From Flectonema sp. DT1601 (Eukaryota), in NCBI GenBank assembly GCA_964019425.1, contig OZ025787.1, positions 1,426,001-1,490,000 of the forward strand: DNA of 64,000 nt. Reading direction: 5' to 3'. Below the pieces are notes generated by a model. That model was not told where the DNA came from. It did no database searches and was given only the letters and a program-made list of their open reading frames with translations. Position numbers and translations under genes: made by a program. This document shows positions 518 through 43,060 of the stretch, one piece after another (position 1 is the first letter of the stretch; every line of letters starts with the position of its first letter).

Positions 518-2686
518 ATGAGATCCCTTCCTTGGGTGCTGCTTGCAGCGACCCTCTGCAGTGCTGACAACACGATTTGCCCGAACTGGGAAACAGACCC
601 TGCCAGTTGCCTTAAGAAGTACAACGTAGTTTGGAATGACCTGCTTCCTGAACCTAGGGATACTTTCATAAATACAATGCCATTGGGTAATGGAAGACTA
701 ACAGCGAATGTGTACTCTAATGGAGAGGACTCTGTTAGTTTATTATTTGCAGCAAGTGATGCATGGAATGAAGGATCTGATTTGATAAAAGTTGGGACTG
801 TTACCGTTCAGTTCGAACCACAACCACCAAAGGGTCACTTCAAGCAGTACATTGACTTAGCCACGGCAACTGTGTTTGTGGAGATGGGAGACTTGCAAGT
901 GTCGATGTACATTGATGCGAATAGTAACACTACTGTTGTGGATTACAACAACACGAAGTACACTGCCAAGGCAACTGCCTCGTTGGCTCGTCCTCAAGCT
1001 CAGTCTGTCCAGGGTCAGTTTGAGTGTCAGGCATACAACATCAGTGCTGACGGTAGTGCTGAAAATGGAGCAGCTTTCTACCATCGGAATCAGGGATTCC
1101 CTGAACAAGATTACTTCAAGAACATGGTCGAGGAACAAAACCTCGGCCCCAAAGCCTACGCATCGATGCCTAACTTGTTAGTAAACAGAACTACTGGTGG
1201 GTACATTACTACTTCTGGTTCAATGACTCTCATTACGATATTAACAAAACAAACTAACACTGTAGAGGATTGGGTCTCTGCTGTCAAGGCTGAAGTCGTC
1301 ACTCCGAATCAAGAAGGTCACGTGAAGTGGTGGAATTCGTTTTGGCAGCGTTCGTACATTGAGGTTTCTGACTTTAATGTAACATCGAAGTACGTATTAC
1401 AGAGATTCCTGCAAGCATGCCAGGCCAGGTCTCCATTTCCCCTGAAATTTAATGGAATGTTGTTCACGGCGACACACAAGATGGATGTGCGTGGCTGGGG
1501 TGGTCGCAACTGGTGGCAGAACCTCCGTCTTCCGTACTACAACATGTTGTCAACTGGTGACACTGACATGTTGTTCACTCTGTTGGATGGTTTTCATAAA
1601 ACACTTCCTCTTGCTAAGGCAAGAACTGAACATTATTTCAACATCACTGGTGCTTACTGGCCGGAATACACTGATGCTCTATTTGGTACTACACACGCTC
1701 AGTCATACGGGTGTGGACGTGCTGGAAAGACTGACCCACCCTACTGGTACAACTCTGATCGTTGGAACCACTACAACGTTCAGGGAAGTTTGGATCTTTC
1801 CTTATTTGCGATTGATTACCTCACTCACACTGGTAAGTCTGGAGAGTACATGGACATCGTTGTTAATGTCTTGGAGTTCTTCGCTCAGTGGAGACCTGCT
1901 AGAGATGCTCAGGGTAAGATGATACTCTTCCCGACCCAATCATGTGAAACTTGGCAATGTCCTGGATTCCCACCAGACCCGAATAACTGCGCTACTAATG
2001 ACATGCCTACAATAGCTGGACTCTACTCTGTTGTGAACAATGTCTTGCTTACTTCATTCGGAACCCCACAGCAGAGGGCTTCTTGGAAGCAATTGTTGGA
2101 TATTATCCCTCCACTTCCAGTAAACAGCACGAACTTGTTGCCATGTGAGAAGTGTCCTCATAGAACCAGCAATGTAGAGAACACTGAATTGTATGCTGTT
2201 CATCCTTACAGATTGTTTACAGCAGGAAGGATGAAGCCGAGTGAGATGACGTTGGCATTCAACGCGATGGACGATCGCAGATTCCGTTCTGATGTTGGAT
2301 GGAACCAAAATGCCATGGACGCCGCACTCTTAGGACGTGCTAAGGATGCTCAGTCGATGGTAGTCGTACGTGCGAGTTACGGTCCTGCTCCTGGTTATCG
2401 CTTTCCTGCTTTCTTGCAGAAGCTTGAAAACTACGCTCCTGGAATAGATCATTTATCTGTTCACAACAATGCTGTGGTGTACATGTTATTACAACAGGAT
2501 GATTCAATTACACACAATGTAACTATTCTTCCTGCATGGCCATGTGACTGGGATGTAACTTTTAAACTCCACGCACCTCTACAGACGATAATCACTGGAT
2601 CTGTGACTAATGGAAAGGTTCAATACAAAGTTTCTCCTGACTCTAGGGCTCCATTTGTACACGCTGCTCCTTGTCAGCAGAAGTAA
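518..2686 (+). CDS. Secreted GH95-like/DUF5703-type glycoside hydrolase, copy 1 (722 aa)
   Basis: Signal peptide MRSLPWVLLAATLCSA; MPLGNGRL resembles the GH95 N-terminal LPxGNGRL motif; C-terminal ELYAVHPYRL, GWxQxAxxAALLG and ILPAWP..WDVTFKLHAP segments typical of this (alpha/alpha)6 family. Confidence 0.75.
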   Translation: MRSLPWVLLAATLCSADNTICPNWETDPASCLKKYNVVWNDLLPEPRDTFINTMPLGNGRLTANVYSNGEDSVSLLFAASDAWNEGSDLIKVGTVTVQFEPQPPKGHFKQYIDLATATVFVEMGDLQVSMYIDANSNTTVVDYNNTKYTAKATASLARPQAQSVQGQFECQAYNISADGSAENGAAFYHRNQGFPEQDYFKNMVEEQNLGPKAYASMPNLLVNRTTGGYITTSGSMTLITILTKQTNTVEDWVSAVKAEVVTPNQEGHVKWWNSFWQRSYIEVSDFNVTSKYVLQRFLQACQARSPFPLKFNGMLFTATHKMDVRGWGGRNWWQNLRLPYYNMLSTGDTDMLFTLLDGFHKTLPLAKARTEHYFNITGAYWPEYTDALFGTTHAQSYGCGRAGKTDPPYWYNSDRWNHYNVQGSLDLSLFAIDYLTHTGKSGEYMDIVVNVLEFFAQWRPARDAQGKMILFPTQSCETWQCPGFPPDPNNCATNDMPTIAGLYSVVNNVLLTSFGTPQQRASWKQLLDIIPPLPVNSTNLLPCEKCPHRTSNVENTELYAVHPYRLFTAGRMKPSEMTLAFNAMDDRRFRSDVGWNQNAMDAALLGRAKDAQSMVVVRASYGPAPGYRFPAFLQKLENYAPGIDHLSVHNNAVVYMLLQQDDSITHNVTILPAWPCDWDVTFKLHAPLQTIITGSVTNGKVQYKVSPDSRAPFVHAAPCQQK

Positions 2687-3963: not shown

Positions 3964-4373
3964 ATCCTGTGAACACCTAACCCAATCCGAGCCCACCCTG
4001 TCCAAAAAATTCAAATCCGGTACTGGCACCCCTGGCGGCCCACCAGTTTTAAGATAATGTGGTAGAAGTCCACCTACCTGAAGGCATTCAAAGATGATGT
4101 GTGAATTTAGTTTTTTTATCCTCTCATGCTATGAGTGTCTTCATCCCTTTGAACTTAAATTTTTTTCTTTTGTTTCGTATGTTTTTCAGGTTGCAGCTTC
4201 TTAGTCAGCTCCTAACACGTTTTGTTTTCCTTTTCTTATCCACACAAGTGACCTCTATGGTTAGAAAAAATGAAATTTTGAAACTGGTGGGTGCCTCAGT
4301 ACCGGAATTGGGGTTTTTAGATAGTATTTTCGTGGGGTTGTGGGCTCTGATTGGTGCTGGGTGACCACAGGAT
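3964..4373. mobile_element. MITE-like element with imperfect ~85-90 bp terminal inverted repeats
   Basis: 3964-4049 (atcctgtg..ccaatccgagcccac..tccggtactg..cccaccagttt) is the reverse complement of 4281-4373; absent upstream of copy 1. Confidence 0.65.
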
Positions 4374-4534
4374 AGCCTGGCTGGGGTTTCTGCATGTCTT
4401 CTTATTATAATGTTCTTCATCATTCATATCTTTCATTCATTTTATCAGAAGGAAATGACCGATGGCTTCACTAAACTGTTTGACAAGTATTCAGTAGTAC
4501 ACTACCACTTTAATCATAGTCACACGCCCATAAC

Positions 4535-6703
4535 ATGAGATCCCTTCCTTGGGTGCTGCTTGCAGCGACCCTCTGCAGTGCTGACAACACGATTTGCCCG
4601 AACTGGGAAACAGACCCTGCCAGTTGCCTTAAGAAGTACAACGTAGTTTGGAATGACCTGCTTCCTGAACCTAGGGATACTTTCATAAATACAATGCCAT
4701 TGGGTAATGGAAGACTAACAGCGAATGTGTACTCTAATGGAGAGGACTCTGTTAGTTTATTATTTGCAGCAAGTGATGCATGGAATGAAGGATCTGATTT
4801 GATAAAAGTTGGGACTGTTACCGTTCAGTTCGAACCACAACCACCAAAGGGTCACTTCAAGCAGTACATTGACTTAGCCACGGCAACTGTGTTCGTGGAG
4901 ATGGGAGACTTGCAAGTGTCGATGTACATTGATGCGAACAGTAACACTACTGTTGTGGATTACAACAACACGAAGTACACTGCCAAGGCAACTGCCTCGT
5001 TGGCTCGTCCTCAAGCTCAGTCTGTCCAGGGTCAGTTTGAGTGTCAGGCATACAACATCAGTGCTGACGGTAGTGCTGAAAATGGAGCAGCTTTCTACCA
5101 TCGGAATCAGGGATTCCCTGAACAAGATTACTTCAAGAACATGGTCGAGGAACAAAACCTCGGCCCCAAAGCCTACGCATCGATGCCTAACTTGTTGGTA
5201 AACAGAACTACTGGTGGGTACATTACTACTTCTGGTTCAATGACTCTCATTACGATATTAACAAAACAAACTAACACTGTAGAGGATTGGGTCTCTGCTG
5301 TCAAGGCTGAAGTCGTCACTCCGAATCAAGAAAGTCACGTGAAGTGGTGGAACTCGTTTTGGCAGCGTTCGTACATTGAGGTTTCTGACTTTAACGTAAC
5401 ATCGAAGTACGTATTACAGAGATTCCTGCAAGCATGCCAGGCCAGGTCTCCATTTCCTATGAAATTTAATGGAATGTTGTTCACGGCGACACACGACATG
5501 GATGTGCGTTTCTGGGGTGGTCGCAACTGGTGGCAGAACCTCCGTCTTCCGTACTACAACATGTTGTCAACTGGTGACACTGACATGTTGTTCACTCTGT
5601 TGGATAGTTTTCATAAAACACTTCCTCTTGCTAAGGCAAGAACTGAACATTATTTCAACATCACTGGTGCGTACTGGCCGGAATACACTGATGCTCTATT
5701 TGGTACTACACACGCTCAGTCATACGGGTGTGGTCGTGCTGGAAAGACTGACCCACCCTACTGGTACAACACTGATCGTTGGAACCACTACAACGTTCAG
5801 GGAAGTTTGGATCTTTCCTTATTTGCGATTGATTACCTCACTCACACTGGTAAGTCTGGAGAGTACATGGACATCGTTGTTAATGTCTTGGAGTTCTTCG
5901 CTCAGTGGAGACCTGCTAGAGATGCTCAGGGTAAGATGCTCTTCTATCCAGCTCAAGCATGTGAAACTTGGCAATGTCCTGGATTCCCACCAGACCCGAA
6001 TAACTGCGCTACTAACGACATGCCTACAATAGCTGGACTCTACTCTGTTGTGAACAATGTCTTGCTTACTTCATTCGGAACCCCACAGCAGAGGGCTTCT
6101 TGGAAGCAATTGTTGGATATTATCCCTCCACTTCCAGTAAACAGCACGAACTTGTTGCCATGTGAGAAGTGTCCTCCGACTACCAGCAATACAGAGAATC
6201 CTGAACTGTATGCTGTTCATCCTTACAGATTGTTTACAGCAGGAAGGATGAAGCCGAGTGAGATGACGTTGGCACTCAACGCTTTAGACGATCGCATATT
6301 CCGTGCTGATGTTGGATGGGAACAAACTGCTATGAACGCTGCACTCTTAGGACGTGCTAAGGAAGCTCAGTCGATGGTAGTCGCACGTGCGAGTTACGGT
6401 CCTGCTCCTGGTTATCGCTTTCCGGGTTTCATGCCGAGAGTTATGTCCTACGCTCCTAGTTTAGATCATTTATCTGTTCACAACAATGCTGTGGTGTACA
6501 TGTTATTACAACAAGATGACTCAATTACACACAATGTAACTATTCTTCCTGCATGGCCATGTGACTGGGATGTAACTTTTAAACTCCACGCACCTCTACA
6601 GACGATAATCACTGGATCTGTGACTAATGGAAAGGTTCAATACAAAGTTTCTCCTGAGTCTAGGGCTCCATTTGTACACGCTGCTCCTTGTCAGCAGAAG
6701 TAA
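4535..6703 (+). CDS. Secreted GH95-like/DUF5703-type glycoside hydrolase, copy 2 (722 aa)
   Basis: Colinear paralog of 518..2686 at offset 4017; 34 aa differences counted by eye. Confidence 0.75.
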   Translation: MRSLPWVLLAATLCSADNTICPNWETDPASCLKKYNVVWNDLLPEPRDTFINTMPLGNGRLTANVYSNGEDSVSLLFAASDAWNEGSDLIKVGTVTVQFEPQPPKGHFKQYIDLATATVFVEMGDLQVSMYIDANSNTTVVDYNNTKYTAKATASLARPQAQSVQGQFECQAYNISADGSAENGAAFYHRNQGFPEQDYFKNMVEEQNLGPKAYASMPNLLVNRTTGGYITTSGSMTLITILTKQTNTVEDWVSAVKAEVVTPNQESHVKWWNSFWQRSYIEVSDFNVTSKYVLQRFLQACQARSPFPMKFNGMLFTATHDMDVRFWGGRNWWQNLRLPYYNMLSTGDTDMLFTLLDSFHKTLPLAKARTEHYFNITGAYWPEYTDALFGTTHAQSYGCGRAGKTDPPYWYNTDRWNHYNVQGSLDLSLFAIDYLTHTGKSGEYMDIVVNVLEFFAQWRPARDAQGKMLFYPAQACETWQCPGFPPDPNNCATNDMPTIAGLYSVVNNVLLTSFGTPQQRASWKQLLDIIPPLPVNSTNLLPCEKCPPTTSNTENPELYAVHPYRLFTAGRMKPSEMTLALNALDDRIFRADVGWEQTAMNAALLGRAKEAQSMVVARASYGPAPGYRFPGFMPRVMSYAPSLDHLSVHNNAVVYMLLQQDDSITHNVTILPAWPCDWDVTFKLHAPLQTIITGSVTNGKVQYKVSPESRAPFVHAAPCQQK

Positions 6704-13549: not shown

Positions 13550-14485
13550 ATGTTCATCTGTAATGTCGCAACAGATATCTACGGAAAGAAACACAATATT
13601 CGACTTCGAATGCCAAAAACACCTCCTTATGAAGAGTTAGTTAGGTACGTAGAATGTCATTTTGATGTTGTTGTCAGATCAACGAGACCAGAAGGGTATC
13701 TCGACATTCCATTCAAAGTTCATGTCATTCGATTATTCGATTCAATTATGTCAAAATGGGTTGATCTTTACAACTCGGCACAACTCACACACGGATGTCA
13801 ATTGTACGCTTTCCAACCAGAAAACAACTGGCACAGCGACTTACAAGGAGCGTTACCAAAAGCTCAAGCAGTTGTAACATGGCAAAGTGCTTATAAGGAT
13901 GCGAGAAGAAAAAGAGCGTTGCGTGCTGATAGAGACTGCGACACTCCACCTTCAAGAGCAGCTAAGATGGGTTCTGTTTTTGGTGATTTAGACATTGGAA
14001 GTAAAGGTTATGTTATCCTTTCTGATTTGAGGGCATCAATGAGAGATCTCGATATCAACGTGACGGAGGGGACTACACCAGCTCTGTTTAGGAAAGCTGA
14101 TAGATCTTGTGATGGTCATCTTAACTTCGAAGAGTTCTCTCGTTTTGCAATCCAACATCCCAACCTGTTAGACGCTCTGTTCTTCCGAGCACGTCCAGTT
14201 TGGAATGACGCCACAGCAAAGATCGCTGCCAATGAAGAACTCCTCGCCCTTCGTAGACAACGTGAACGTGAAATCGATCGCGTCCGTGCAAAGCGATCTC
14301 AATGGGAGCAGAGAACTCACCTCGAAAAGGTTCTCGAAACTCAAAGAAAAGCCTCCAAATTGGCTCGTCTACAGGCAGAGATTTCAACAATCAAAGAACA
14401 CGCTGCGCTGGATGACCTTTACTACAACACCAACCCTGAGAGGAATAAAAATAAATCGGATGATGATCACCCAATACTCGCTTAA
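13550..14485 (+). CDS. BILBO1-like protein (N-terminal ubiquitin-like domain, 2 EF-hands, coiled coil), paralog A
   Basis: VATDIYGKK..RP....F......D....WVDL....QL...CQLYAFQP...WH...Q..LP matches the BILBO1 N-terminal domain as recalled; EF loops DIGSKGYVILSD and DRSCDGHLNFEE. Confidence 0.8.
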   Translation: MFICNVATDIYGKKHNIRLRMPKTPPYEELVRYVECHFDVVVRSTRPEGYLDIPFKVHVIRLFDSIMSKWVDLYNSAQLTHGCQLYAFQPENNWHSDLQGALPKAQAVVTWQSAYKDARRKRALRADRDCDTPPSRAAKMGSVFGDLDIGSKGYVILSDLRASMRDLDINVTEGTTPALFRKADRSCDGHLNFEEFSRFAIQHPNLLDALFFRARPVWNDATAKIAANEELLALRRQREREIDRVRAKRSQWEQRTHLEKVLETQRKASKLARLQAEISTIKEHAALDDLYYNTNPERNKNKSDDDHPILA

Positions 14486-17592: not shown

Positions 17593-18048
17593 ATGGTAAG
17601 TGATGTTGATATCTTCTTCTTCCCTTTCGCAATGATTGCGGCCGTTGTTGGTGTTGGTGCAGTCTGCCTCGGAGGAGGAAAAAGAACATCAAAAGTTGTG
17701 AAAACCCTTCTCGAAGAGAGTAGTGATGAAGAAGAAATGGATATCGTTCTTGTAAGCCAAAAGCAGAAAAGTGATTGCAAGAAGAGAAGATGTAAAAAAA
17801 GAAGAGTAAAGAGAGTTGAGTCTCGATGCGACGATGAAATAGCAATGTTATCTCAGCAGTCAAGCGCAACATGCAGTGACATGGCATCGGCGAGTAGTAT
17901 AAATTTATCTCCTGTTAGCTCACCGTCAAGACCTACCTCAGCTCCTCCACGTTGCGACCAAAGATCATACGAAGAAGAACTTGATATTTACTACAGTGAC
18001 TTTACTCCAATACTACGCCCCCGTTCGGAATCTGTTACTATGTATTAA
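17593..18048 (+). CDS. Small hypothetical protein with N-terminal hydrophobic anchor
   Basis: 151 aa with ATG after an A-rich leader; FFFPFAMIAAVVGVGAVCLGG then a charged, Ser-rich tail. Confidence 0.6.
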   Translation: MVSDVDIFFFPFAMIAAVVGVGAVCLGGGKRTSKVVKTLLEESSDEEEMDIVLVSQKQKSDCKKRRCKKRRVKRVESRCDDEIAMLSQQSSATCSDMASASSINLSPVSSPSRPTSAPPRCDQRSYEEELDIYYSDFTPILRPRSESVTMY

Positions 18049-20247
18049 GTCAGTAGTTTTGATTTTGATCTGTTTCCAAGTCAACGTGGAAAGGCCAAAA
18101 AAAAAAAATAAAAAAATACAGAGCCTTTTTCTTGAACGGGAAAAAAAAAAAAAAAAACTGAAAGTTGAAATTATCGTGCAGTTTCCTTCCAGAAAAACTA
18201 AAAATCAAAAAAAAAAAAGTGTCCTTTTTACAATGTCTTTTAAAAGACTGCTAAGGGTCAAACTTTTACCTATGCCATTACCTACCTTTTTTTTTCTTCT
18301 TTTTTTTTACCTTTTTTTCCTCGTTGTGTAGCTCTTGTTAACTTGGTGGATTCAAAAAAAAAAAAAAAAAAAAATAGATCACTCGACTACAAAAAAAAAA
18401 CTTTTTTCATAAAGTAAAAAAAAAAAAAAAAAATTGTAGTTTTACCCCTTTATTTTCCTATTACTCTGACTTTCTAGTACAGTTTGGTGGGTTTCGAAAA
18501 AAAGAGAGAAAAAACAAAAAAAAAAACAAAACAAAAAAAAAAAAAAAAAAAAACGTAAATTAATAAAGAAGAACTCTATTTCTTCAATCGATCTTGATGA
18601 ATTTTGATTTTGAGTACAACTTTTTATGGATTCTTTTTTTTTTTTTTTTTTTTTTTTGCAACGTATTTCGGCATTCGATGGGCAAGGGGTTTGGGTTGAA
18701 CCCTCCTCTTTCTGAATTCCCGCTATTTACATCCGTTTTTTTTTCTTTTCTCTTTTTTTTTTGTTGGTTTTTTTTTTTTTTAAAATAATCTAAGGGGAAA
18801 AAAATACAAAAAAAAAAAAAAAAAAACGGAAGAACATTCTGAATTACTATTTTTTTTTGTTTGTTTGTTTTGTTTTGCAAAACCTTCTAAAACACTTTTT
18901 TTTTTTTTTTTTTTGATTTAAATTACGAGGATCGAAATAAACTTTGGAGAGAGAGAAGTTTTATTTTTGTTATTTATTTTTACTGAAATAAACCTTTTTC
19001 GATACTCTTCCCAACCTAAACAAACAGGTTGGATTGTTCACACTAACTGGTTTGATTGCCAACTAAAAATGTTGGCAGCAAGCACATTTACAATCAAATT
19101 ATGATTTTTTTTTTTTTTTTTTTTTTTTTGATTTTTTTTATATTCCCTTTTTTAAAAAAAAAAGTTTCTAAAAGATGCTGTGTATCACTACCGCACCAAC
19201 CCCTAACCCCAGGCTCTTTTCATCTATACTCGTTTTTCTATTTTTTTTTTTTTTTTTTTTTGCAGTCTAAAAATCTTTTGGAAAAGCCAAAGAAAACAAA
19301 AGAAGGAGAGAAAAAAAAAAGAGAACAAAAAAAATAGATGAAACCAGAACGAAAAAGCAGGTAAAAAAAAAAAAAACATCATTTTTTCAACTTCTGATGA
19401 AGGGAAAAAAAAAAGCAGGGGGAAGAAGAAAAAAAAAAAAAATCTTTTTTTCAACTCCCGATTTGATTTGATTGAATGTTCCCATATCATTTCATTTCAT
19501 TTTATTTTATTTTTTATACCAACAAACCCATTATTTGGCGAGAATTGTGGCATCCTGACTAACCTATTCCTTTATTAGGATTTTGCACCGGTTGCGCACA
19601 ACGAAACAAAAAGTGAGTAAAAAAAAAAGTAAAAAGTGAAGTTGGCCGATTCTTTTTTTTTTTTCCGGTTTTGTCACTAATTATACAAAAAAAAAAAATA
19701 GTTAGATAGCATAAAAAAACAAAAGTATCTTTTATTCCACATGGGTACTTGTAGAACCATTCGATATATACTGTTTCTTATTGAATGGCTGTAGAGAGCT
19801 TTTCGATTTTCTTTTTTTTTGTTAAAAAATAAAGTAAACCGGAGGCCATGAGTATCCAACACAAAAACAAAAAAAAACTAACTAACAGGAAAAAAAAATA
19901 ATAAGGGGGGAGTGCTTATTTGTTAAGTGTTTTTTTCTTTTTTTTTTTTTTCTCTGTTCTTTTAATAATCACGTAGACAACACTCAATTTTCTGTAGCGG
20001 ATTGCCACAGAGACCATAAAATGGTTATGCAAAACTTATTATTTCATTAACTTAAAACAATAACTGCGAAGAAAAAGAGGAGAGATAGGAAGAGAAGGAA
20101 AATAAAAAAGAGGGAAGAGAAAAAAAAAAAAGTCATGACACTGGTGGTCAGACTTCTGTTTTTTTTTTTTTTCTTAAAAGGTTTGGGAGGTTACGCGAAG
20201 TTCGGGTAATTACTGTAATCATAATGTTAATTACAAAATAACAGTCG

Positions 20248-20279
<32 letters not shown>

Positions 20280-23200
20280 CCCGTTCTCTATCAACCTATG
20301 CTCTCCAATAACACAGTGGACACATTACGAATATTTCTTTGAAAAAATCTTGATAGTTATCTTTGTTCTGGTAAATTTGGAAATTTTTTGCCGCCAAGTC
20401 ATGGTCATTTGGGTCTTCTTTTGTTTTTTCCGTCATTTTTTTTTTGGTGCAGAAAATTTAAAAATATAAAAAATTAAAAAAAAAGTAACAAAATAGTAGT
20501 AGTTAGTGGTTTTTTTTTTAATTTTTTTATGTAAGCTGTTTTAGCTTTAGGGCTTTCGTTAATCTGTGTAGAAAAGCAAAAAAAAATATAAAAAAAAGAG
20601 AAATTTTCTGGGAGGGAAATTTTTTCTCAAACTATTTCATCATTCAGTGTTCTTGTATAAGTTTAATTTAAGCGAAACAAGACATTTATCTGTAGGAAAG
20701 AAAAAAAAAAAAAAAAAAAGAGGGGGGGAAAGCCTTTGAAGCAATGTGAATTATGTTTGTTCCAGCAGACAGTGACTTTTTTACAAGTCATAATTTAATA
20801 AACAAGAGTGCTGTAGAGCTTTTTTTTTTTTTTTTTTTTTTTTTCATGCAGTGATCTTTTTTGTCAAAAATACTACTGTGGTGGGTAATCCTCTTGGTGT
20901 ATTTAGACTTTTTTTTATTCATTTTATTTTTTTAAAAAGTTTCTTTTCAATCACTTTTCGAATCTTGTTGGTTTATGATTTGCGTAGTCGCAAAATTCGG
21001 TTTATGTCATTGAATCGGGAAACTTCTCCTCGTTTTTGTTATTCGTTTGTATTTGGTATGTTTTTTTTCTTTCTCATCGGGAAAATTCGTTGAAATAGCG
21101 TCCAGCACTAACTGGTCAAACACTCACGGCACCTGACAAAATAAAAATAAAAATAATAATAATAAATAATTTGGACCGACGACTGTCGTTTGCCTAGTTT
21201 TTTTTTTCCTCCTCTCATTCTATTCACTTTCCTTTTTTTTACTTTAATTCACACAACAACGATTGCAAATAAAAATATAAGTTTTTTCTTGCAAAATTTA
21301 TGGCCGACATTTTTATATATTGTTATACAACACTACTTTGTGAAATGGTTTTTTTTTAGTGGAGGGCAGATTATTTTAAAAAATGGTTCTGGTTGATAAC
21401 AGATTAGGGGAATTCTCTATTTTCTGTGACCTTTATTGAGCTTAAACAAAAAATACTGTAAGTGGTTGATAGTTTTATGAAACTGTTGTTTTTCACTCTT
21501 CATTTTCTCCTTTTTATTCGATCAGGTCTTTTTTGAGGAAAAAAATATAGCTTTTATTTATTTATTTTTAATTTCTATCTTTTCTCCTCTAGTTTTTTTT
21601 TCCCTTCTTTATTTGGTGTTTTCCATTCATTCTTGTGAGTTGAGGAAAAGGGGGAAAAAAAAAAAAAGAATTATACTATTATAAAATAAAAGAAAACATC
21701 ATCTGTAGTTACGCTTAAACTAAGCTAACAAGTGGTTACGCAAATACATTTTTTTTTTTTTTTTTTTAATTTCGTCACACCTTTTTACGTAATATCAATA
21801 AATAACACGATACAAAAAATTACAAGATGAAAGTCTTTATACGGTACTTTAGTGTTTGCTACGTTGTTGCCATTATATGTGTTGCCGCTCTTTCCTGTTT
21901 TTCTTTTAGTCTGACGGTGGGCTGATGGCTGTGATCTCTCCTTTGGGTAGTAGCATTAAATTGTCAAATTGGTTATTCTCTTATGTGTTTTTTTGATGAT
22001 GTTTTTTTTTTTTTTTTTTTTTTTCCAAGGAAGAATCGAATAGTTGAGTTTTTTAACTCAATTTCGTTAATTGTGGGAAAACTGCAAACCGAAAGAGAAA
22101 ACTTTTTTACGGACTTTTTTTTTTTTTTTTTTAAAATATGGATTTTTATTATTATTGAAACAGTTTTATAATTCTTTTTTAAAAATAGAAAAATTTTGGG
22201 TCGATGGACTTGCAAATGCAGGTCCCTTTATCGATTTCAGCTTTCTTGATGCTGTTGCTTTAATAATATTTTTTTCGTTTTTCTTTCCAATTTTTATCAA
22301 AAAGTCCGTTTTAGAAGTCTGCTTTTTTGCAACTCCCTGTCGCCTATTCCTGTTTTTTTTTTTTTTTTTTTTTTTTTTTTGCATGTGTGTACTCGTTTCT
22401 CATTGGTTTTTCGCCGACTATGCCAAACAGAATTATTTCTTTTCCTCTTGGAAGTCTCATAGCCGTAAACATGCAGTGACACACTTCTGAAAAATCCCTT
22501 CGTGATGTATTTCAGCCTAGCTAGTGTGTTTGTTATGTTTTTTTTATATTTCTTCTCTTCTTCTTTAGATGTGTTTGCTCTTGATCACCTCCCTTTATTT
22601 GGTTTCTTTTCTTCATTTCGTTTTTTTTTCGACTTGCGCCTCTTCGCTTTCGCTCCTGGGTTTCCGGTGTCGCTGGTTATCGTGGTGTCTTTTTTTTAAT
22701 TTATAAAAAAAAAAAATTATATTTACAGAAATCAACGTCTTCTCTCCTTGGTAATCTTCCTTCTCGTGGTGGTAACTTTCTTTCTTGAGAGATATGTTAA
22801 GCATTGCAATGAGCGTGTCTCAATCATTTGTGTTTCTTGTGTTGCAATTCGTTGTGCACAGAGCGACAACGCAATGTTTAGCGAAGGTTACTAATCCACC
22901 GCACGTATTCTGATTGACTTTTTTCCCCTCCTCTTATTCCCTTCCCATCCTTTGTTTCTGTATATATCCAAAGTATTCCACAATACCTTTCTCGGCATGA
23001 GTTTCACGGATCTGCTGGTTGTTAGTTTGTTTGTTTTTTTCTTTCTTTCACTCAAAAAAACTGTGATTTTCTTATGGTGGGCATCTTTTTTGACAGTTCA
23101 CTCGGTTATGACAAGTAACCAAAAATAGAATTAATTCTTTCCGATGATTGACAGCCACCTCTGACACTGTTGATTAGTGCTTTCAGTGAGTCCTGGTGTC

Positions 23201-25623
23201 CTTGCCAGTGAGAGTTACACAGGCTGACTTTATCAAGCTGTGCAAATCAACATTATAACTTTCCCGGTGAAAGAAAAGAGAGTCTTATCATTAGTATTTC
23301 GAAGTAAGTGATTTTATTTTATCGAACATCGTTTTTACTTTTTAACCATTTTATATGTTTTTTTTCTTTTTCTTTTTTTTTTTTTTTTTAGGGATGTTGC
23401 TTAAGCACATCAACAAAAAAAAAAAATGGAGGGGGGAAAGAAAAAAAATAAAATAAAATAAAAAATGGAAGATAACTCCTTGACTGTGAGTTGCGTTCGA
23501 GCATGAAAAGTAAGGTTTTGCGTAGCAAAAAAAAAAAAAAAAAAATCTTTTCTTTTTCCCAACCTTTTCTTTATTGCGAAATATTATTTAAAAAACAAAG
23601 CAAACAAAAAAAAAAAAAAAAAAAAAAAACAGCATAATCTTTCTTACTCTCTACTCTATATTGTTAGTTAGTTTTATTTATTTATTTATTTATTTGTTTA
23701 CTTTTTTTTTTTTACAATAGTAAAAAAAAGAAGAAAAAAAAAACTATAAAAAAAAAAAAAGAATTATAAAAATAAAAGGAAGCAGGAAAAACTAACTAAT
23801 CGCTAATTGCTGCTTCGTTCGAGGAATAGATTCTATTTTGTTCTCTCCCTCTTTATTTTGAATTCAGTAACACACAGCGTCGCGATGTCGCGAGTTAGTT
23901 TAATTAAATAGCGCGAAGGTTTCTACTGACTAACACTCGTGTGACTTCTTCCTGAACTAGTTTTGTTTGTTGTTTTCAATCTTGCGAAAATAATTTTTTC
24001 ACTTTACGTTTTGAGTGAAGAGGCAACACTAAATCGCTTTAAAAAAAGGACTTGCGCAAAAAAAAAAAAAAATGACTGTTTTGGAGTTTTTTTCGCTTTT
24101 GCATTTTTTCAGTCTGTTTTTTTGAATGTTTGCTTCTTTTCACTCTACAACACATTTATTGTAAAAATAAAATAAAATAACGTATTGAAGTTATGTATGC
24201 AAGTTTCGGACTCGTGCATTATTTTATCTATCTGCTTTGGTTGATACTTTTGTCGAAATCTTAATTTGTAGGTGCTCTGCACCCGGTTGTTTGGTTGGTT
24301 CCTCGCAGGCCGCACATTAAGAATACAAAAAATGACACTCTGCGGAGTTAAAATAATGTAACTGCGTCAGGAAACTTGCATACGGTATTAACTTCAATAA
24401 AAATGGCAAAAAAAAAAAAAAAAAAACACATATTATTTTTTCTTCTTTTTCTTATGTTACTTTCGCTTTTGTTGTTATGTACATTTCGATTAGAGTCAAA
24501 CTACTGGAACGAAAAAAAAAAAAATCGGAAAAGAAAAATATTACATCTCCCCCCTTCCCCTGACATTATTTTTCTATTTTATTATTATTTTCTTTTTCAT
24601 CTTTTTTCATGGAACTGTTATTGGTATGTTTTCTGACCAGCAAAAGAAAGTCAAAGTCTTTGTTGTGTTGCACAAGTAAACTCAGCCTTCCCCTGATACG
24701 GGGAAGTAATTATTTCTGACCCTTTTGGTCGACTTGCAAAATAAAACAAAACAACAAAAAGTAAAGAAAGGGGAAAAAAAAAAGAACTGGAAAAAATAAT
24801 GGTGGTCTCCTGACCAAGATTATTAGTAGTTATTTATTAGTGATTGCGTTTTTAATGCCGTTTTTTGTGGTAACATTCGATCTCTTTACGTGAATTCGTA
24901 ATGATTATTGCACGGCACGCACGTACGAAACTTTTTTTTTTTTCCCTTCCCCCTTCTCTGTTCTGTTTTCCTTGATTTTTTTTTTTATTTTTTTTTTTAT
25001 GCTAGTCTATGAGAGGGGGAATTGCAGTTACGGTGAACCGAATTCCCTTCTCTTAATTACTTTAAAAAAAAAAAAAAAAAAAAAAACTGTTTTATTGATT
25101 TTATTGTTTAACAGTAAATAAACTTGTTTTTTTATTTGATTCTCAAAGTGCGAAATTACTCGTCAAGGATTACTATAAATAAGGAGAAGATAACGAAAAC
25201 GCTTCACGTTTATTTATTATTCTTTTTTCCCCCCCCATTTTTTAGTTTTTTTTTATCTTCCTTCCCCCTTCTTATGTCCCTCGGGAATAACCTCAAAAAA
25301 AAAAAAATAATAATAATAATAATTAATAATTAGGATGAAAGAAGGCAAGAGTATTATTAAGTGGGATCCCGTTCCCCAACAAACATTAAGTTACTCGGTT
25401 TTTTTTAAAAAAAAAAAAAAAAGTAAAATAAAATAAAATAAATTAAAGGTATCCTTTTTTTTTATTTTAAAAAAAAAAAAAAAAAAAAATTGTGTGAGCG
25501 TATTTATGATTATTATGAAATATTTCACTTTACAGGATCATCACAACTGAAATGAGTTACCTAGCATTCATAATATACAGTAACGTTGGATTAAATAACT
25601 AGCTAACAAAATAAATGAGAAAA

Positions 25624-25706
25624 TGGAATGAAGTCCCTAGAACTTACTGATGAAGGCCTAAGAGGGACAAGTAGTATAAGATTAAGGCCTGAAACTACGT
25701 ATTCCA
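25624..25706 (+). ncRNA. Candidate hammerhead ribozyme with nested (pseudoknotted) cleavage strand; predicted cut after A25676
   Basis: CUGAUGA 25647-53; stem II AGGCCU 25654-59/25685-90; GAAA 25691-94; stem III ACUAC 25694-98/GUAGU 25671-75; stem I UAAG 25677-80/CUUA 25643-46; extra helices GUCCCU 25633-38/AGGGAC 25663-68 and UGGAAUG 25624-30/UAUUCCA 25700-06. Confidence 0.7.
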
Positions 25707-26035
25707 CAGTGTATTATGGAACAGCAGAACAATGTGTTTTTATAACTTTTCTTTTTTATATTTTATTTTAGTGCACTTTTTTATAATAAACTCATATTCT
25801 AACTAAATGAGAAAACTTATTTCACGATGCATTTTTTGATTTAAGTGCATTCTGATTTCTGACTGGTAGCTCCTCACAGGGAATAAGAACGAATTCAAAC
25901 GTCTCAGTTTTATTTTTGAGTCTACTATTAAATATTCTACTCTACAGAACAGATGTGAAATGTCACAACCAAAAAAAATAAGAAAAACTATTTCACAATA
26001 ACTTTTTGATTACAGGAATACAAATCAACAACAAC

Positions 26036-26266
26036 ACCACCACCACCACCACCACCACCACCACCACCACCACCACCACCACCACCACCACCACCACCAC
26101 CACCACCACCACCACCACCACCACCACCACCACCACCACCACCACCACCACCACCACCACCACCACCACCACCACCACCACCACCACCACCACCACCACC
26201 ACCACCACCACCACCACCACCACCACCACCACCACCACCACCACCACCACCACCACCACCACCACC
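26036..26266 (+). repeat. Perfect (ACC)77 microsatellite
   Basis: 231 bp uninterrupted, preceded by a few AAC units, ending 10 nt before ATG 26277. Confidence 0.98.
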
Positions 26267-26276
26267 AACTCAAAGT

Positions 26277-27626
26277 ATGGAACTCGATGATGATTTATTT
26301 GGATGTCTGGGCGGTGTTTCCCGAAGCCGACAAGCACTCGTCACAACACAACAAGAAATAATTGAATTACGAGATGAAGTAGAGCGGCTTCGAAAATGTG
26401 GAAATGATCCCAGTTCCAACATCGGAAATAATAATACAGCACGCAGTAGTACATCACAATCACATGATGTCACAGCACATGTAAAAGCTGAACAAGAATT
26501 AGTTTCCCAACTGGCTGTTGTTAGACACGAGAAGAAGGTTTCTCTTGATGAGGTTCGCAACATGACTGAAGTCATATCAACTCTTCGAGAAGAACTCCAA
26601 TCCATTAATAATGAAAATGATAAACTAAAAACAACAGTTGGACAACACGAAGCAACTATTCAAAAATTAGAATACCGCGACCGCGCACAAAGTGCTTTAG
26701 CAGCAAAGTGTAAAAAGATCTACGAAGACAGCAATACGGCATTTGAAAAACTAAAAACTTTATTTCAAACTAACAAGGGAGAGAGTAGCACCCTAAAGTC
26801 TGACCTCAAGCACTGTATGTCTAAATTAGAAACACTCACCAAGAGAGAAGAGAACGTATCTGCGACCTGTATCGATCTCAAGAAGAAATACTCTTTAGAG
26901 CAAATGCAAAATCTACAACTTCGATCTACTATCGACAAGTTAGAACTTGGGAACAGTGTTGTTACGGAGTTGGCTGATAACTTATCATTAAAAGTAAATC
27001 AATATGTGGAACTGAGTAGAAGTTCTGCAAGTGAAGTAACTCATTTACAAAAACTGTTGGAAACTTCAAACCTACAACTGGAAGAAGCTCTTTGTTGTTG
27101 CTGTCCAGAAGAAGCAATCACTATTATAAAACCTGACAGTTCTTCAACTGTTGTTACGTTAACTGTTTGTACTCAGACAGAAGACTTACAATTGGGACAG
27201 AAGCAACTTTTATCAAAAGTACGATCTGAACTACACCAAGAACGTGAAGAGAGTAGTCGAATAGCTGCTGCACTTGTTGATGCTGAACGACAACTGCAGC
27301 AGTCTTGCAGCCCACAGTCAGAAGGTGAAGTCCAACTCCGTGAAAGGTTAGCTGCTCTTGAGACTGTCTGTGAAGAATTAGCAACACAAAACAAATCTAT
27401 GCGTGCTGGTCAATCATCAGCTCCACTAAGTCCACAAAACTGTTGCATCTGTAGACTTCCTATGAATACTAATGGAAGACGTGTTCGCTGTCAAGGTCAA
27501 GGATGTCGAAAAGTAGCTCACCAAGAGTGTAACGGAGCTCATCCTTCTGATTGCTGGTCGTGTACTATGTGTACCCGATCTTCAATAATGAAACGCCGTC
27601 GGATTCAAGGCATTGCTATGAAGTAG
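26277..27626 (+). CDS. Coiled-coil protein with C-terminal PHD-type zinc finger
   Basis: Long heptad region; CICR..VRCQGQGC..VAHQEC..WSCTMC = C4HC3; basic KRRR near the C-terminus. Confidence 0.75.
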   Translation: MELDDDLFGCLGGVSRSRQALVTTQQEIIELRDEVERLRKCGNDPSSNIGNNNTARSSTSQSHDVTAHVKAEQELVSQLAVVRHEKKVSLDEVRNMTEVISTLREELQSINNENDKLKTTVGQHEATIQKLEYRDRAQSALAAKCKKIYEDSNTAFEKLKTLFQTNKGESSTLKSDLKHCMSKLETLTKREENVSATCIDLKKKYSLEQMQNLQLRSTIDKLELGNSVVTELADNLSLKVNQYVELSRSSASEVTHLQKLLETSNLQLEEALCCCCPEEAITIIKPDSSSTVVTLTVCTQTEDLQLGQKQLLSKVRSELHQEREESSRIAAALVDAERQLQQSCSPQSEGEVQLRERLAALETVCEELATQNKSMRAGQSSAPLSPQNCCICRLPMNTNGRRVRCQGQGCRKVAHQECNGAHPSDCWSCTMCTRSSIMKRRRIQGIAMK

Positions 27627-31142: not shown

Positions 31143-32426
31143 ATGAATACCAGACTACTAATACGTCCATCAAGAGTCACTCTACGGAGTGTAAGAGAAA
31201 GACGATGGGCATCACAAGATATAATGGACATGCCTGGAGCTGTCGGAAGCTTTGCATCTCTTAAGCAAATGGCTACTGTGATCAGTGGAATGGATAAGAA
31301 AGGAGAGGTTCAGACAATGTCTTCGTTAAATTTTAATTTACTTCCCGGAACTGGAAATATTGACTCCACCGTCACTGGTACTCTTCAAGGTTTCGATGAA
31401 GTTGGAAGAAGTGAAGTAAGTCCAATGCCGTGTACTTTCACTCTCCCACATGAACTCGAAGAAGGCACTGAGTGTATTGTTCACTTAATGAGAGAGAACG
31501 CTACTCAAGTAGTGTATCATAACCTTCCTCCGTTACTTCCTTTTAAAAAAGATCTTAAAAAAGAAAATAATTCCACCGAAACCAACTCCACAATAATAAG
31601 TAACTGGGAAATATCAGGTGGAGGTCTCGTTGAAGAAGTACTCGGATGGAATCAGGTAGCCTACGTTACGATAAAAGCAATAACAAAAATATCCGACGAA
31701 GCCTTTCACTACATCGGAACAGTAACAAAAATAATAAACAGCAACGAAGACAGCTCTTTATACACTCCATTAACAGTAAGCTCTTTTCTAGGAAGGGAGG
31801 AATTACTTATAAAATCAATAAGAAAGAGGTCTCTTCTAATAGAAGATTGGGATCATGAAGCACGTCTGATGCTCTGCTGGTGGTTCGCCCGTAAGTATGG
31901 AAGAAACAGAAGTGCTATACTGCTACCTCCGAATATATTAACTTATCTGAGATCGTGGCAGTCTGAATCTCGTTTTAATAAAACAGAACTTCTCGCAATC
32001 CTTCATCTAGTGAGCTATTCTATGATTTCTAATTCAGGAACATCAAATTTCGACGGATTCATTACTAAAGAGAAGGAACTTATTAATCCAGAAGTCTTAT
32101 CGTCATTTTATACTCCTCAATTGTTATTATCTCGTGCAGCGAGAACTGATTTTGTTCCGTCTGATAAAAAGGATTTGGGAGGTCCGTTGTATCCAAGTAT
32201 GCCTGCTGCAGCAATTAACGAAGACTCTGCTCTTTTAACATCTGAGCCAAGCAATACCCTCGACGATGAGTTTCGAAAGGGACATCAGCTTGTCGTTCCG
32301 ATTAAGCCTGGGAAGATGCCTTCTAATTATGAGCAGTGGACTACCTTACCTGAAGGTGAGAAGGATGAGAAAATGCGATTGGGAACCCCAACAGCTTTTG
32401 CTCGCCCTGGTTTAATTGAAAAATAG
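31143..32426 (+). CDS. Hypothetical protein, likely mitochondrial
   Basis: 427-aa ORF; Arg-rich presequence-like MNTRLLIRPSRVTLRSVRERRWAS. Confidence 0.7.
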   Translation: MNTRLLIRPSRVTLRSVRERRWASQDIMDMPGAVGSFASLKQMATVISGMDKKGEVQTMSSLNFNLLPGTGNIDSTVTGTLQGFDEVGRSEVSPMPCTFTLPHELEEGTECIVHLMRENATQVVYHNLPPLLPFKKDLKKENNSTETNSTIISNWEISGGGLVEEVLGWNQVAYVTIKAITKISDEAFHYIGTVTKIINSNEDSSLYTPLTVSSFLGREELLIKSIRKRSLLIEDWDHEARLMLCWWFARKYGRNRSAILLPPNILTYLRSWQSESRFNKTELLAILHLVSYSMISNSGTSNFDGFITKEKELINPEVLSSFYTPQLLLSRAARTDFVPSDKKDLGGPLYPSMPAAAINEDSALLTSEPSNTLDDEFRKGHQLVVPIKPGKMPSNYEQWTTLPEGEKDEKMRLGTPTAFARPGLIEK

Positions 32427-41992: not shown

Positions 41993-43060
41993 ATGCAAGT
42001 TTCTGTGTCGTGTCCGGATTTGGGATTTCCCGTGGTGTCATTCACAGCTGTTGCGGATTCTCTCGTGAGCGACGTGTTGACTGCTGCGGCTGAGGAGTGG
42101 GGCATCGATCCGAAAGAAGTCGAACTCTCGTTCGCTGGAGAGATTCTTTGTGAAACTGGGCGTCTTGCTGTTCATGGAGTGGGTCCCAACACCGAACTGG
42201 AAGTGTGGAAGAAGCGATTTCGATTGTTTGATAAAAGTTGGTTAATAGATGAAACAAAGCGAGAGGAGTTGATTCGCCGACTAACTGACAACGGGGAACA
42301 ATGTGTTTACCTGGACACTCCAACATTCTTAGAGAATGATATCCTCGTACTTGAGGAAGAATTGATTCCTCCGGTAGTTAAACAGATTACGTTCCGCAAT
42401 TCAAATTTTGCAGTCAAAAGCATCGAATTAGCATTCTTAGCAACAAGTTCTCTCACTTCGCTTGACCTTTCTGCTCTGAATAATATCACTGAAATTGGAG
42501 AATATTTCTTAGGAGACTGTTCTTTCCTCACTTCACTTGATCTTTCTGGTATGAATAGCGTCACTAAAATTGCAGATTTGTTCTTAGGTGGCTGTTGTTA
42601 CTTGACTTCTCTTAACCTCTCTGGTATGAATAGCGTCACTGAAATCGGAGGATGGTTCTTAGAAAACTGTTCTTCCATCACTTCGCTTGACCTGTCTTGT
42701 CTGAATAGTGTCACCGAAATTGGGGAATATTTCTTAGGACACTGTGCTTCCATCACTTCGCTTGACCTGTCTTGTCTGAGTAGCGTCACCGAAATTGAAT
42801 GTTCGTTCTTAGCAAATTGTTCTTCAATCACTGCACTTGACCTGTCTTGTCTGAATAGTGTCACCGAAATTGGAGAAATGTTTTTAGCAAACTGTTTTTC
42901 CATCACTTCTCTTGACCTCTCTGGTCTGAATTGTGTGACAGCTATCAGAAACGGACCTTCCTTTCTCGAAGGTTGCGAAGGACTTCAATCAATTAAGATA
43001 CCCGAAAACAATGAACTTCTTGCAGAAGTTTCTTCGAGGTTCTCAACTGTCATAACCTGA
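41993..43060 (+). CDS. Ubiquitin-like domain plus cysteine-containing LRR (BspA-like) protein
   Basis: Start MQVSVSCP; LSFAGEIL....LAVHGV Ubl pattern; seven ~25-aa repeats CxxITSLDLSxLNSVTEIGxxFLxx. Confidence 0.85.
   Translation: MQVSVSCPDLGFPVVSFTAVADSLVSDVLTAAAEEWGIDPKEVELSFAGEILCETGRLAVHGVGPNTELEVWKKRFRLFDKSWLIDETKREELIRRLTDNGEQCVYLDTPTFLENDILVLEEELIPPVVKQITFRNSNFAVKSIELAFLATSSLTSLDLSALNNITEIGEYFLGDCSFLTSLDLSGMNSVTKIADLFLGGCCYLTSLNLSGMNSVTEIGGWFLENCSSITSLDLSCLNSVTEIGEYFLGHCASITSLDLSCLSSVTEIECSFLANCSSITALDLSCLNSVTEIGEMFLANCFSITSLDLSGLNCVTAIRNGPSFLEGCEGLQSIKIPENNELLAEVSSRFSTVIT
42443..42973 (+). repeat. Coding tandem repeat, seven units of ~75 bp (LRRs)
   Basis: Repeated cttcgcttgacctgtcttgtctgaatag.gtcaccgaaattg units. 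Confidence 0.9.

What the first reader, a model, noticed from the sequence alone, without database searches (positions are those of the whole stretch)
25624..25706. Hammerhead ribozyme core with a non-standard caged topology: the cleavage strand lies inside loop II
Seen in the sequence: every conserved hammerhead core nucleotide is present with correct adjacency. CUGAUGA (25647-53) is followed directly by stem II (AGGCCU 25654-59 with AGGCCU 25685-90), then directly by GAAA (25691-94). The GUA triplet (25674-76) is neither upstream nor downstream of the core but inside loop II. Its 5' side GUAGU pairs perfectly with ACUAC of GAAACUAC (stem III, 5 bp). Its 3' side UAAG pairs perfectly with the CUUA just before CUGAUGA (stem I, 4 bp). 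Two more helices use most of the remaining bases: GUCCCU/AGGGAC (6 bp) and UGGAAUG/UAUUCCA (7 bp), joined by 1-4 nt purine-rich linkers. Established knowledge: natural hammerheads are classed as type I, II or III, circular permutations of one strand order. Inference: this strand order is not one of those permutations, so standard descriptors would probably miss it. It would form a cage with two extra three-way junctions, or work as a dimer through the palindromic AGGCCU. I cannot confirm that it is undescribed or catalytically active.
Basis: partly seen in the sequence, partly recalled or inferred. Interest (0 to 1): 0.93.

Follow-up and report, generated by a model that had tools for sequence, protein, structure and literature searches.

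The report
Caged hammerhead ribozyme in plankton retroelement
This stretch encodes a predicted self-cutting hammerhead RNA with its parts in a rare scrambled order, reported in 2023 from two soil sequences, here closed by an extra helix and sitting in what is likely a recently jumped element in the genome of a marine protist.

Summary
The order is not undescribed: it is 'type CSG' of Eckert et al. 2023 (PMC10085705), two soil-metagenome sequences that self-cleave slowly. The window copy has the same 66-nt layout, including the helix that joins stems I and II. This scan also noted a type-CSG copy earlier in another genome (e1-7368731).

New here: (1) a fifth, closing helix, with a compensatory G-C to A-U change in a sister subfamily; (2) an A-U pair at 10.1-11.1, which the published descriptor excludes; (3) the setting: a diplonemid nuclear gene cluster, inside a 180-181 bp insert flanked by a 12-bp target-site duplication whose edges match the points where public contigs switch to other flanks. 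Most likely the 5'-truncated 3' end of a young retroelement carrying the ribozyme about 128 nt from its end, as Penelope-like elements do. Cleavage is untested, no reverse transcriptase gene was seen, and a palindrome-driven dimer is not needed.

The parts
25612..25623 (+). Left copy of a 12-bp direct repeat (target-site duplication; the first base can belong to either side, so 11-12 bp)
   Evidence: exact repeat, 12-mer occurs only at 25612 and 25804 in the window
25624..25804 (+). 180-181 bp insert, read as the 3' end of a longer mobile element, cut short at its 5' side
   Evidence: contigs of runs X1 and X2 match from exactly 25624 and share another left flank; X2 leaves at 25804, X1 at 25807
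25624..25630 (+). Closing helix P0, 5' strand (pairs with 25700-25706); absent from the published CSG consensus
   Evidence: G-C to A-U double change in sister subfamily; published structure line lacks it
25633..25638 (+). Helix that joins stems I and II, 5' strand (pairs with 25663-25668)
   Evidence: same place as the 'I' helix of CSG-1/2; lengthened on both strands in X6 record 14
25643..25646 (+). Stem I, 5' strand (pairs with 25677-25680); may extend by two pairs beyond an A-A mismatch
25647..25653 (+). Block C core CUGAUGA (C3-A9)
25654..25659 (+). Stem II, 5' strand (pairs with 25685-25690); first pair A10.1-U11.1; palindromic
25663..25668 (+). Helix that joins stems I and II, 3' strand, followed by the AA linker 25669-70
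25671..25676 (+). Block S: stem III 5' strand 25671-75 and GUA triplet 25674-76; predicted cut after A25676
   Evidence: cut site by analogy with CSG-1/2
25677..25680 (+). Stem I, 3' strand, followed by the AUUA linker 25681-84
25685..25698 (+). Block G: stem II 3' strand 25685-90, GAAA 25691-94, stem III 3' strand 25694-98
25700..25706 (+). Closing helix P0, 3' strand
25804..25815 (+). Right copy of the 12-bp direct repeat

Best explanation
This is a hammerhead fold in the non-circular C-S-G order with a fifth closing helix, predicted to cut itself after A25676, and it lies in a 180-181 bp insert with a 12-bp target-site duplication that is likely the 5'-truncated 3' end of a young retroelement of a diplonemid. 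Shown: core, five helices, block order, the duplication, other flanks in public contigs, sister subfamilies, diplonemid neighbours. Inferred mechanism: during transcription the closing helix, the I/II helix and stem III fold first as a nested three-way junction (predicted); their two loops then zip together through stem II and the short stem I, which builds the ordinary hammerhead active site with stems I and II already held side by side; G12 and G8 would catalyse 2'-OH attack after A25676 as in all hammerheads (established chemistry, recalled). It would work as a monomer and probably slowly (CSG-1/2: 0.004 and 0.026 per min). In the parent element it would process tandem or read-through transcripts, as proposed for hammerheads near the 3' ends of Penelope-like elements. 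A copy with the whole ribozyme arises when uncut RNA is reverse-transcribed from a fixed point about 128 nt downstream of the cut site at a staggered nick in AT-rich DNA and synthesis stops early. The copy now lies in sense within a one-strand gene cluster, so it is likely transcribed with the polycistronic precursor, probably as a passenger.
For: Structure. Match to CSG-1/2: 66 nt from the I/II helix to the end of stem III, CUGAUGA at position 15 and GAAAC at position 59 in both. By-eye comparison with the published alignment, anchored on the core: 14 of 14 pairs of stems I-III are Watson-Crick in both, 6 differ on both sides, 8 are identical, 0 are broken; the AA linker and an AUUAA string at the stem I-II link are shared. 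Family: 8 of 20 listed contig pieces from 4 runs (at most 4 studies) cover 30 nt or more of 25633-25698 (table 8). In X1 record 3 and X6 record 14 the closing helix reads UAGAAUG/UAUUCUA against UGGAAUG/UAUUCCA here (3' side also in X3 record 10); in X6 record 14 the I/II helix gains one U and one opposing A; in these contigs likeness to the window falls off at about the two ends of the closing helix (tables 4, 7). Mobile setting: unique 12-bp repeat whose inner edges coincide with where X1 record 2 and X2 record 6 begin to match (25624) and X2 record 8 stops (25804); X1 record 2 is identical over 184 nt and has 641 nt of other sequence upstream, the last 30 letters of which are the same in X2. 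Geometry: in the Penelope-like element PAc the cut is at +26 and reverse transcription starts at +111 to +118, with an optional 30-40 bp tail, and uncut RNA is the main template. Host: closest named relative of ORF 13550-14485 is a Diplonema papillatum protein, 67% identical; 22 of 22 ORFs >=200 aa are on the + strand, as in the co-transcribed clusters of D. papillatum.
Against: No cleavage data. The first pair of stem II is A-U, whereas G10.1-C11.1 is described as the most conserved pair after A15.1-U16.1, though weaker variants are natural. Stem I is 4 bp and unstable alone (+0.3 kcal/mol). Within the family no double change was seen in stems I-III; the two compensations are one event each and lie in the outer helices. 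X1 record 3 and X6 record 15 carry a 2-nt insertion in the 3' strand of stem II with no matching change listed on the other strand, and X6 record 15 lacks block C, so some copies look decayed. Three metatranscriptome contigs span the predicted cut intact (records 14-16); contigs cannot show ends, strand or transcription. No reverse transcriptase or GIY-YIG ORF was seen in the window (13 ORFs scanned against Pfam, plus inspection) and there is no poly(A) tail. X2 record 8 continues 39 nt beyond 25804 on a single path although two upstream copies feed into it, so the element may run on past 25804 in some copies. The organisms in the runs are coded, so it is not shown that the other copies sit in a diplonemid. 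The comparison with CSG-1/2 is by eye and cannot tell descent from convergence.
Confidence: 0.68

Rival explanations
1. A true CSG hammerhead in a short non-autonomous unit that begins at the closing helix: the 5' edge at 25624 is an RNA end set by the knot itself (for example a 5'-3' exonuclease stalling there) or by copying of a circular RNA, as in non-LTR retrozymes, and not a random truncation.
For: The left edge of the insert falls on the first base of the closing helix to the nucleotide, which random truncation over 641 nt or more would rarely give. Size (181 bp) and low GC resemble metazoan non-LTR retrozymes of about 150-300 bp.
Against: X1 and X2 share one left flank, and X1 and X6 share another for the sister subfamily, so both continue 5' as repeated sequence; X2 record 7 joins at 25713, a second 5' edge. 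No tandem unit and no second ribozyme in the window. We look at this copy because it is complete, which biases the edge.
Confidence: 0.13
2. A hammerhead-derived fold that is now inactive or nearly so in this subfamily; the element copies itself without cleavage and the cage serves as a protein-binding or protective structure.
For: A10.1-U11.1, weak stem I, stem II insertions in two related contigs; in PAc, ribozyme mutants still insert in vitro and the ribozyme cuts only with protein present.
Against: All catalytic core bases are intact here, and no difference is listed at a core base in the contigs laid (tables 3-4; some differences are unplaced); both published CSG RNAs cleave.
Confidence: 0.12
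3. The active form is a dimer formed through the palindromic stem II.
For: Both stem II strands are the same self-complementary hexamer; two copies co-fold at -47.5 against -41.0 kcal/mol for two monomers. Minimal hammerheads of animal Penelope-like elements are thought to act as dimers.
Against: Those dimers make up for a missing stem III, which here is 5 bp and well formed. The predicted dimer pairs like strands and would block the core. Published CSG RNAs and two related contigs lack the palindrome.
Confidence: 0.04
4. Chance arrangement in AT-rich intergenic DNA.
For: Folding energy is not unusual; loose descriptors do hit shuffles (87 hits of any order at 4/4/4 in 2,500 shuffles).
Against: 1 of 2,500 for this order and quality before the two extra helices are counted; same length and linkers as CSG-1/2; compensatory changes; 0 of 52 unrelated motif matches formed the three stems.
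Confidence: 0.03

Closest known systems
Type-CSG hammerhead ribozymes CSG-1 and CSG-2 (Eckert, Friedrich, Weinberg, Weinberg 2023, PMC10085705; seen: abstract, main-text parts 3-5 of 8, methods, discussion part 1, supplement part 2 of 42 and the CSG passages; figures not seen)
   Same: [quoted passage not shown]
   Different: Extra 7-bp closing helix; I/II helix 6 bp plus unpaired purines instead of 8 bp; stem I 4 bp instead of 6; A10.1-U11.1 instead of G-C; GUA instead of GUC; outer sequences unrelated; found in a eukaryotic nuclear genome inside an insert with a target-site duplication, whereas the published ones are 2 unique (5 total) soil-metagenome DNA sequences with no known host.
Hammerheads of Penelope-like elements (PMC4209133 passages; PMC11167929 passages and second half of main text; PMC8557442 passages)
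   Same: Hammerhead near the fixed 3' end of the inserted DNA (128 nt here; 85-92 nt plus an optional 30-40 bp tail in PAc, my subtraction); whole uncut ribozyme copied; AT-rich target.
   Different: Those are type I, often minimal; here the order is CSG. No RT or GIY-YIG ORF, pseudo-LTR pair or inverted arm was seen here.
Non-LTR retrozymes (PMC7761336 passages)
   Same: Small non-coding hammerhead-bearing inserts of similar size and low GC.
   Different: They are tandem 150-300 bp repeats with type I hammerheads; here one copy, part of a longer sequence, no tandem array in the window.
L1Tc/ingi clade of kinetoplastids (PMC12278014 passages; PMC4035085 listing only)
   Same: Euglenozoan retroelements with a self-cleaving ribozyme and target-site duplications (about 12 bp, recalled).
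   Different: HDV-like ribozyme in the 5' 77 nt and a poly(A) tail; here a hammerhead near the 3' end and no poly(A) tail.
Split-core permuted hammerheads in Naiad and Hero elements
   Same: Non-circular hammerhead wiring near the tail of eukaryotic retroelements.
   Different: Those notes describe a broken core strand in animals; here each of the three blocks is intact and the order is plain CSG.

Membership tests
Hammerhead ribozyme | CUGAnGA between stems I and II; GAAA between stems II and III; NUH with A15.1-U16.1 | tested here: met
Hammerhead ribozyme | Three helices directly adjacent to the core | tested here: met
   4, 6 and 5 Watson-Crick pairs
Hammerhead ribozyme | G10.1-C11.1 (typical, not absolute) | tested here: not met
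   A25654-U25690; natural departures exist
Hammerhead ribozyme | Site-specific self-cleavage | not testable with these tools
   Only assembled contigs were available
Hammerhead types I, II, III | Circular block order CGS, GSC or SCG | tested here: not met
   Order is C-S-G; no Rfam hit
Type-CSG hammerhead | Block order C, S, G with uninterrupted blocks | tested here: met
Type-CSG hammerhead | Helix that joins stems I and II | tested here: met
   25633-38/25663-68, pair probability 0.94; same place as in the published structure line
Type-CSG hammerhead | Covariation in the helices | tested here: inconclusive
   6 of 14 core pairs differ on both sides against CSG-1/2 (by eye); one double change and one double insertion in outer helices within the family; no alignment deep enough for a statistical test
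Type-CSG hammerhead | Match to the published search descriptor (a search tool, not a definition) | tested here: not met
   Needs CUGAUGAG or CUGAUGAUG and CGAAA; none present
Target-primed retroelement insertion | Target-site duplication | tested here: met
   12 bp, unique in the window, edges match contig switch points
Target-primed retroelement insertion | Fixed 3' end, variable 5' truncation | tested here: inconclusive
   3' edge 25804-25807 in window, X1, X2; 5' edges 25624 (window) and 25713 (X2 record 7); too few copies
Target-primed retroelement insertion | Poly(A) or simple-repeat tail | tested here: inconclusive
   No poly(A); the insert ends in a short TAACT, and a related motif flanks X2 record 7
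Penelope-like element | RT plus GIY-YIG ORF | not testable with these tools
   Upstream part lies only in run contigs that cannot be read out; no whole genome held; none seen in the window
Penelope-like element | Hammerhead about 85-130 nt before the 3' end of insertions | tested here: met
   128 nt; a resemblance of geometry only
Penelope-like element | Pseudo-LTR pairs, tandem or inverted arms | tested here: not met
   Single copy in the window
Non-LTR retrozyme | Tandem 150-300 bp units, each with a hammerhead; circular RNA | tested here: not met
   One ribozyme in 64 kb; circles not testable
L1Tc/ingi clade | 5' HDV-like ribozyme (Pr77) and poly(A) tail | tested here: not met

The most novel reading that the evidence does not exclude
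Diplonemids, among the most abundant marine protists, host an active retroelement family (Penelope-like or a new non-autonomous kind) that uses a five-helix caged type-CSG hammerhead where other elements use a type I hammerhead. That would give the CSG topology its first known host lineage and biological job, show that non-circular hammerheads are a eukaryotic retroelement device, and suggest that the knot also fixes where copies begin.
Probability: 0.45. Interest if true: 0.78.

Novelty: new variant of a known kind. Interest (0 to 1): 0.6.

Why it matters
The discoverers of type CSG called its support weaker than for type SGC because they had two similar sequences, no host and no role. A distant example that keeps every core pair through different bases, in a eukaryote that belongs to a culturable group, and inside a mobile insert with sister subfamilies, supplies the missing covariation and a setting in which a function can be tested. 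It also shows why such RNAs are missed: Rfam models and the published descriptor both fail on it. The closing helix makes a compact, fully caged 83-nt construct that suits structure determination of a non-circular hammerhead. I found no paper that reports type CSG in a eukaryote or a retroelement (searches; open-access library only).

Tried and rejected
Homologue scans with a degenerate core pattern: 6 viral, 31 metagenome and 15 prokaryote-genome loci; 0 of 52 formed stems I, II and III at the match. The published CSG contigs fit that pattern but were not returned, so the metagenome collection is incomplete for this purpose and these blanks are weak. A family-specific 20-mer gave 0 viral loci; blastn of the insert gave no match in phages or plasmids. 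No whole genome is held, so copy number is unknown. None of the four runs laid has depth at 25300-25549 or 25825-26030; a part without cover proves nothing, and part of that range was skipped as repeat. A 47-codon frame runs through the ribozyme from the ATG at 25628 but single-base insertions in the sister subfamily break it, so coding was rejected. Tandem-repeat reading of 25490-26025: only short local likenesses; 25600-25790 against 25790-25970 scores within the shuffle range. No hammerhead on the minus strand. The protein atlas gave nothing useful for ORF 31143-32426. A literature search for data on A10.1-U11.1 returned 0 papers. Earlier scan notes by sequence and by place: nothing.

Full report
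Observation. Read 5' to 3': closing helix 5' strand (25624-30), I/II helix 5' strand (25633-38), stem I (25643-46), CUGAUGA (25647-53), stem II (25654-59), I/II helix 3' strand (25663-68), stem III and GUA (25671-76), stem I (25677-80), stem II (25685-90), GAAA and stem III (25691-98), closing helix 3' strand (25700-06). A descriptor for all six block orders finds this one site in the window. In 2,500 shuffles that keep local dinucleotide content, the same order with stems of at least 4, 6 and 5 pairs arose once and any order six times, without asking for the two extra helices. The closing helix, the I/II helix and stem III are mutually nested and are recovered by ordinary folding; stems I and II cross them and each other, so energy models cannot score them. 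Rfam does not see the RNA.

What it is. Eckert et al. 2023 (PMC10085705) split the hammerhead into blocks C, S and G and showed that non-circular orders exist in nature. The order here is their type CSG, of which they had two unique sequences (five in all) from soil metagenome DNA; both cut at the predicted site at 0.004 and 0.026 per min. They found none in genomes of known organisms and judged the support modest. The window RNA has the same 66-nt span from the I/II helix to the end of stem III, with CUGAUGA and GAAAC at the same offsets. Comparing by eye outward from the core, all 14 comparable pairs of stems I-III are Watson-Crick in both; 6 differ on both sides and 8 are identical. [quoted passage not shown] Differences: an A-U first pair in stem II, which the authors' descriptor excludes, a 4-bp stem I, GUA at the cut, and the closing helix, which their structure line lacks.

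Relatives. Pattern scans of viral, metagenome and prokaryote collections gave 52 loci, none with the three stems; the published contigs were not among them, so these collections are not complete for the purpose. Six public runs share words with 25490-26030; four were laid. Eight of 20 listed pieces cover at least 30 nt of the core. One group is 99-100% like the window (X1 record 2; X2 records 6 and 8; X3 record 9). A sister subfamily (X1 record 3, X6 record 14, X3 record 10) changes the second pair of the closing helix from G-C to A-U, and in X6 record 14 lengthens the I/II helix by one U and one opposing A; its likeness to the window falls off at about the ends of the closing helix. These are single events, not a statistical test. 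Against: X1 record 3 and X6 record 15 have two extra bases in the 3' strand of stem II, and record 15 lacks block C. X6 is a marine metatranscriptome, but contigs show neither strand, ends nor transcription, and three of them span the predicted cut.

Setting. The window is diplonemid nuclear DNA: the closest named relative of one neighbouring ORF is from Diplonema papillatum (67%), and 22 of 22 long ORFs lie on the + strand, as in the co-transcribed clusters of that species. The ribozyme lies in sense, 7.6 kb after the last upstream ORF and about 570 nt before the next ATG. An exact 12-bp direct repeat brackets 25624-25803/4; it occurs nowhere else in the window, and it is the only non-trivial 11-mer repeat at that spacing among 6,396 positions tested (the spacing was chosen after seeing it). 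Independent support comes from the contigs: X1 and X2 begin to match at 25624 and share a different left flank, and they stop at 25807 and 25804. So the insert is a piece of a longer repeated sequence, with its right end shared and its left end cut short, which is the pattern of target-primed reverse transcription (established knowledge). One caveat: X2 continues 39 nt past 25804 on a single path, so some copies may run further.

How it likely works. Shown: sequence, pairing potential, duplication, sister copies. Inferred: co-transcriptional folding of the nested three-way junction, then loop-loop pairing of stems II and I to form a normal hammerhead core with stems I and II tethered by a helix, the role that loop contacts or pseudoknots play in fast hammerheads; cleavage after A25676 in a monomer, probably slow. 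In the parent element the cut would process tandem or read-through transcripts. The closest model is the Penelope-like element PAc, where the cut lies 85-92 nt (plus an optional 30-40 bp tail) before the start of reverse transcription and uncut RNA is the main template; here the distance is 128 nt. No RT gene was seen, so the clade is a guess: Penelope-like is my first choice, a retrozyme-like unit second, ingi-like unlikely. The left edge falling exactly on the first base of the closing helix is unexplained and keeps rival 1 alive. The palindromic stem II is more likely a liability than a mechanism.

Novelty. The topology is known. The closing helix, the A-U first pair, the eukaryotic host and the mobile insert are not in the papers found (open-access library only; figures and most of the 42 supplement parts of PMC10085705 were not seen). 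Earlier notes of this scan report a type-CSG copy in another genome (e1-7368731) and differently wired, split-core hammerheads in animal retroelements; these are unchecked and had no sequence likeness to this window. Verdict: real, new variant of a known and very rare kind; interest 0.6; not categorically new.

Noticed in passing
window 25553-25607: A second piece just upstream is also found with other flanks in two runs (X1 record 1, X6 record 13); it ends in a motif like the end of the insert, and 25545-64 resembles 25621-40. Possibly the tail of another mobile element. No Rfam match of note.
   Followed up: partly
window 25805-25841 and 25976-26011: Degenerate local repeat (81% over 37 nt) that begins with the duplicated target motif, so the insert landed in a locally repeated AT-rich sequence.
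   Followed up: partly
window 26029-26268: A run of about 80 CCA/CAC units lies in frame, as poly-proline, with the downstream 449-aa ORF (stop-to-stop frame 26010-27623, no ATG before 26277). Microsatellite or spliced exon; not decided.
   Followed up: no
window 518-2686 and 4535-6703: Two tandem 722-aa paralogues, 97% identical in DNA, with a DUF5703 N-terminal domain; look like secreted glycoside hydrolases (recalled resemblance, untested).
   Followed up: partly
window 18046-26276: An 8.2-kb stretch without long ORFs inside an otherwise dense one-strand gene cluster.
   Followed up: no
window 41993-43060: ORF with 75-bp internal repeats encoding BspA-type leucine-rich repeats.
   Followed up: partly
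L003, minus strand about 4316-4405: A loose C-S-G descriptor match (stems 7/5/4, long spacer) in a viral contig, away from the pattern hit; probably chance.
   Followed up: no
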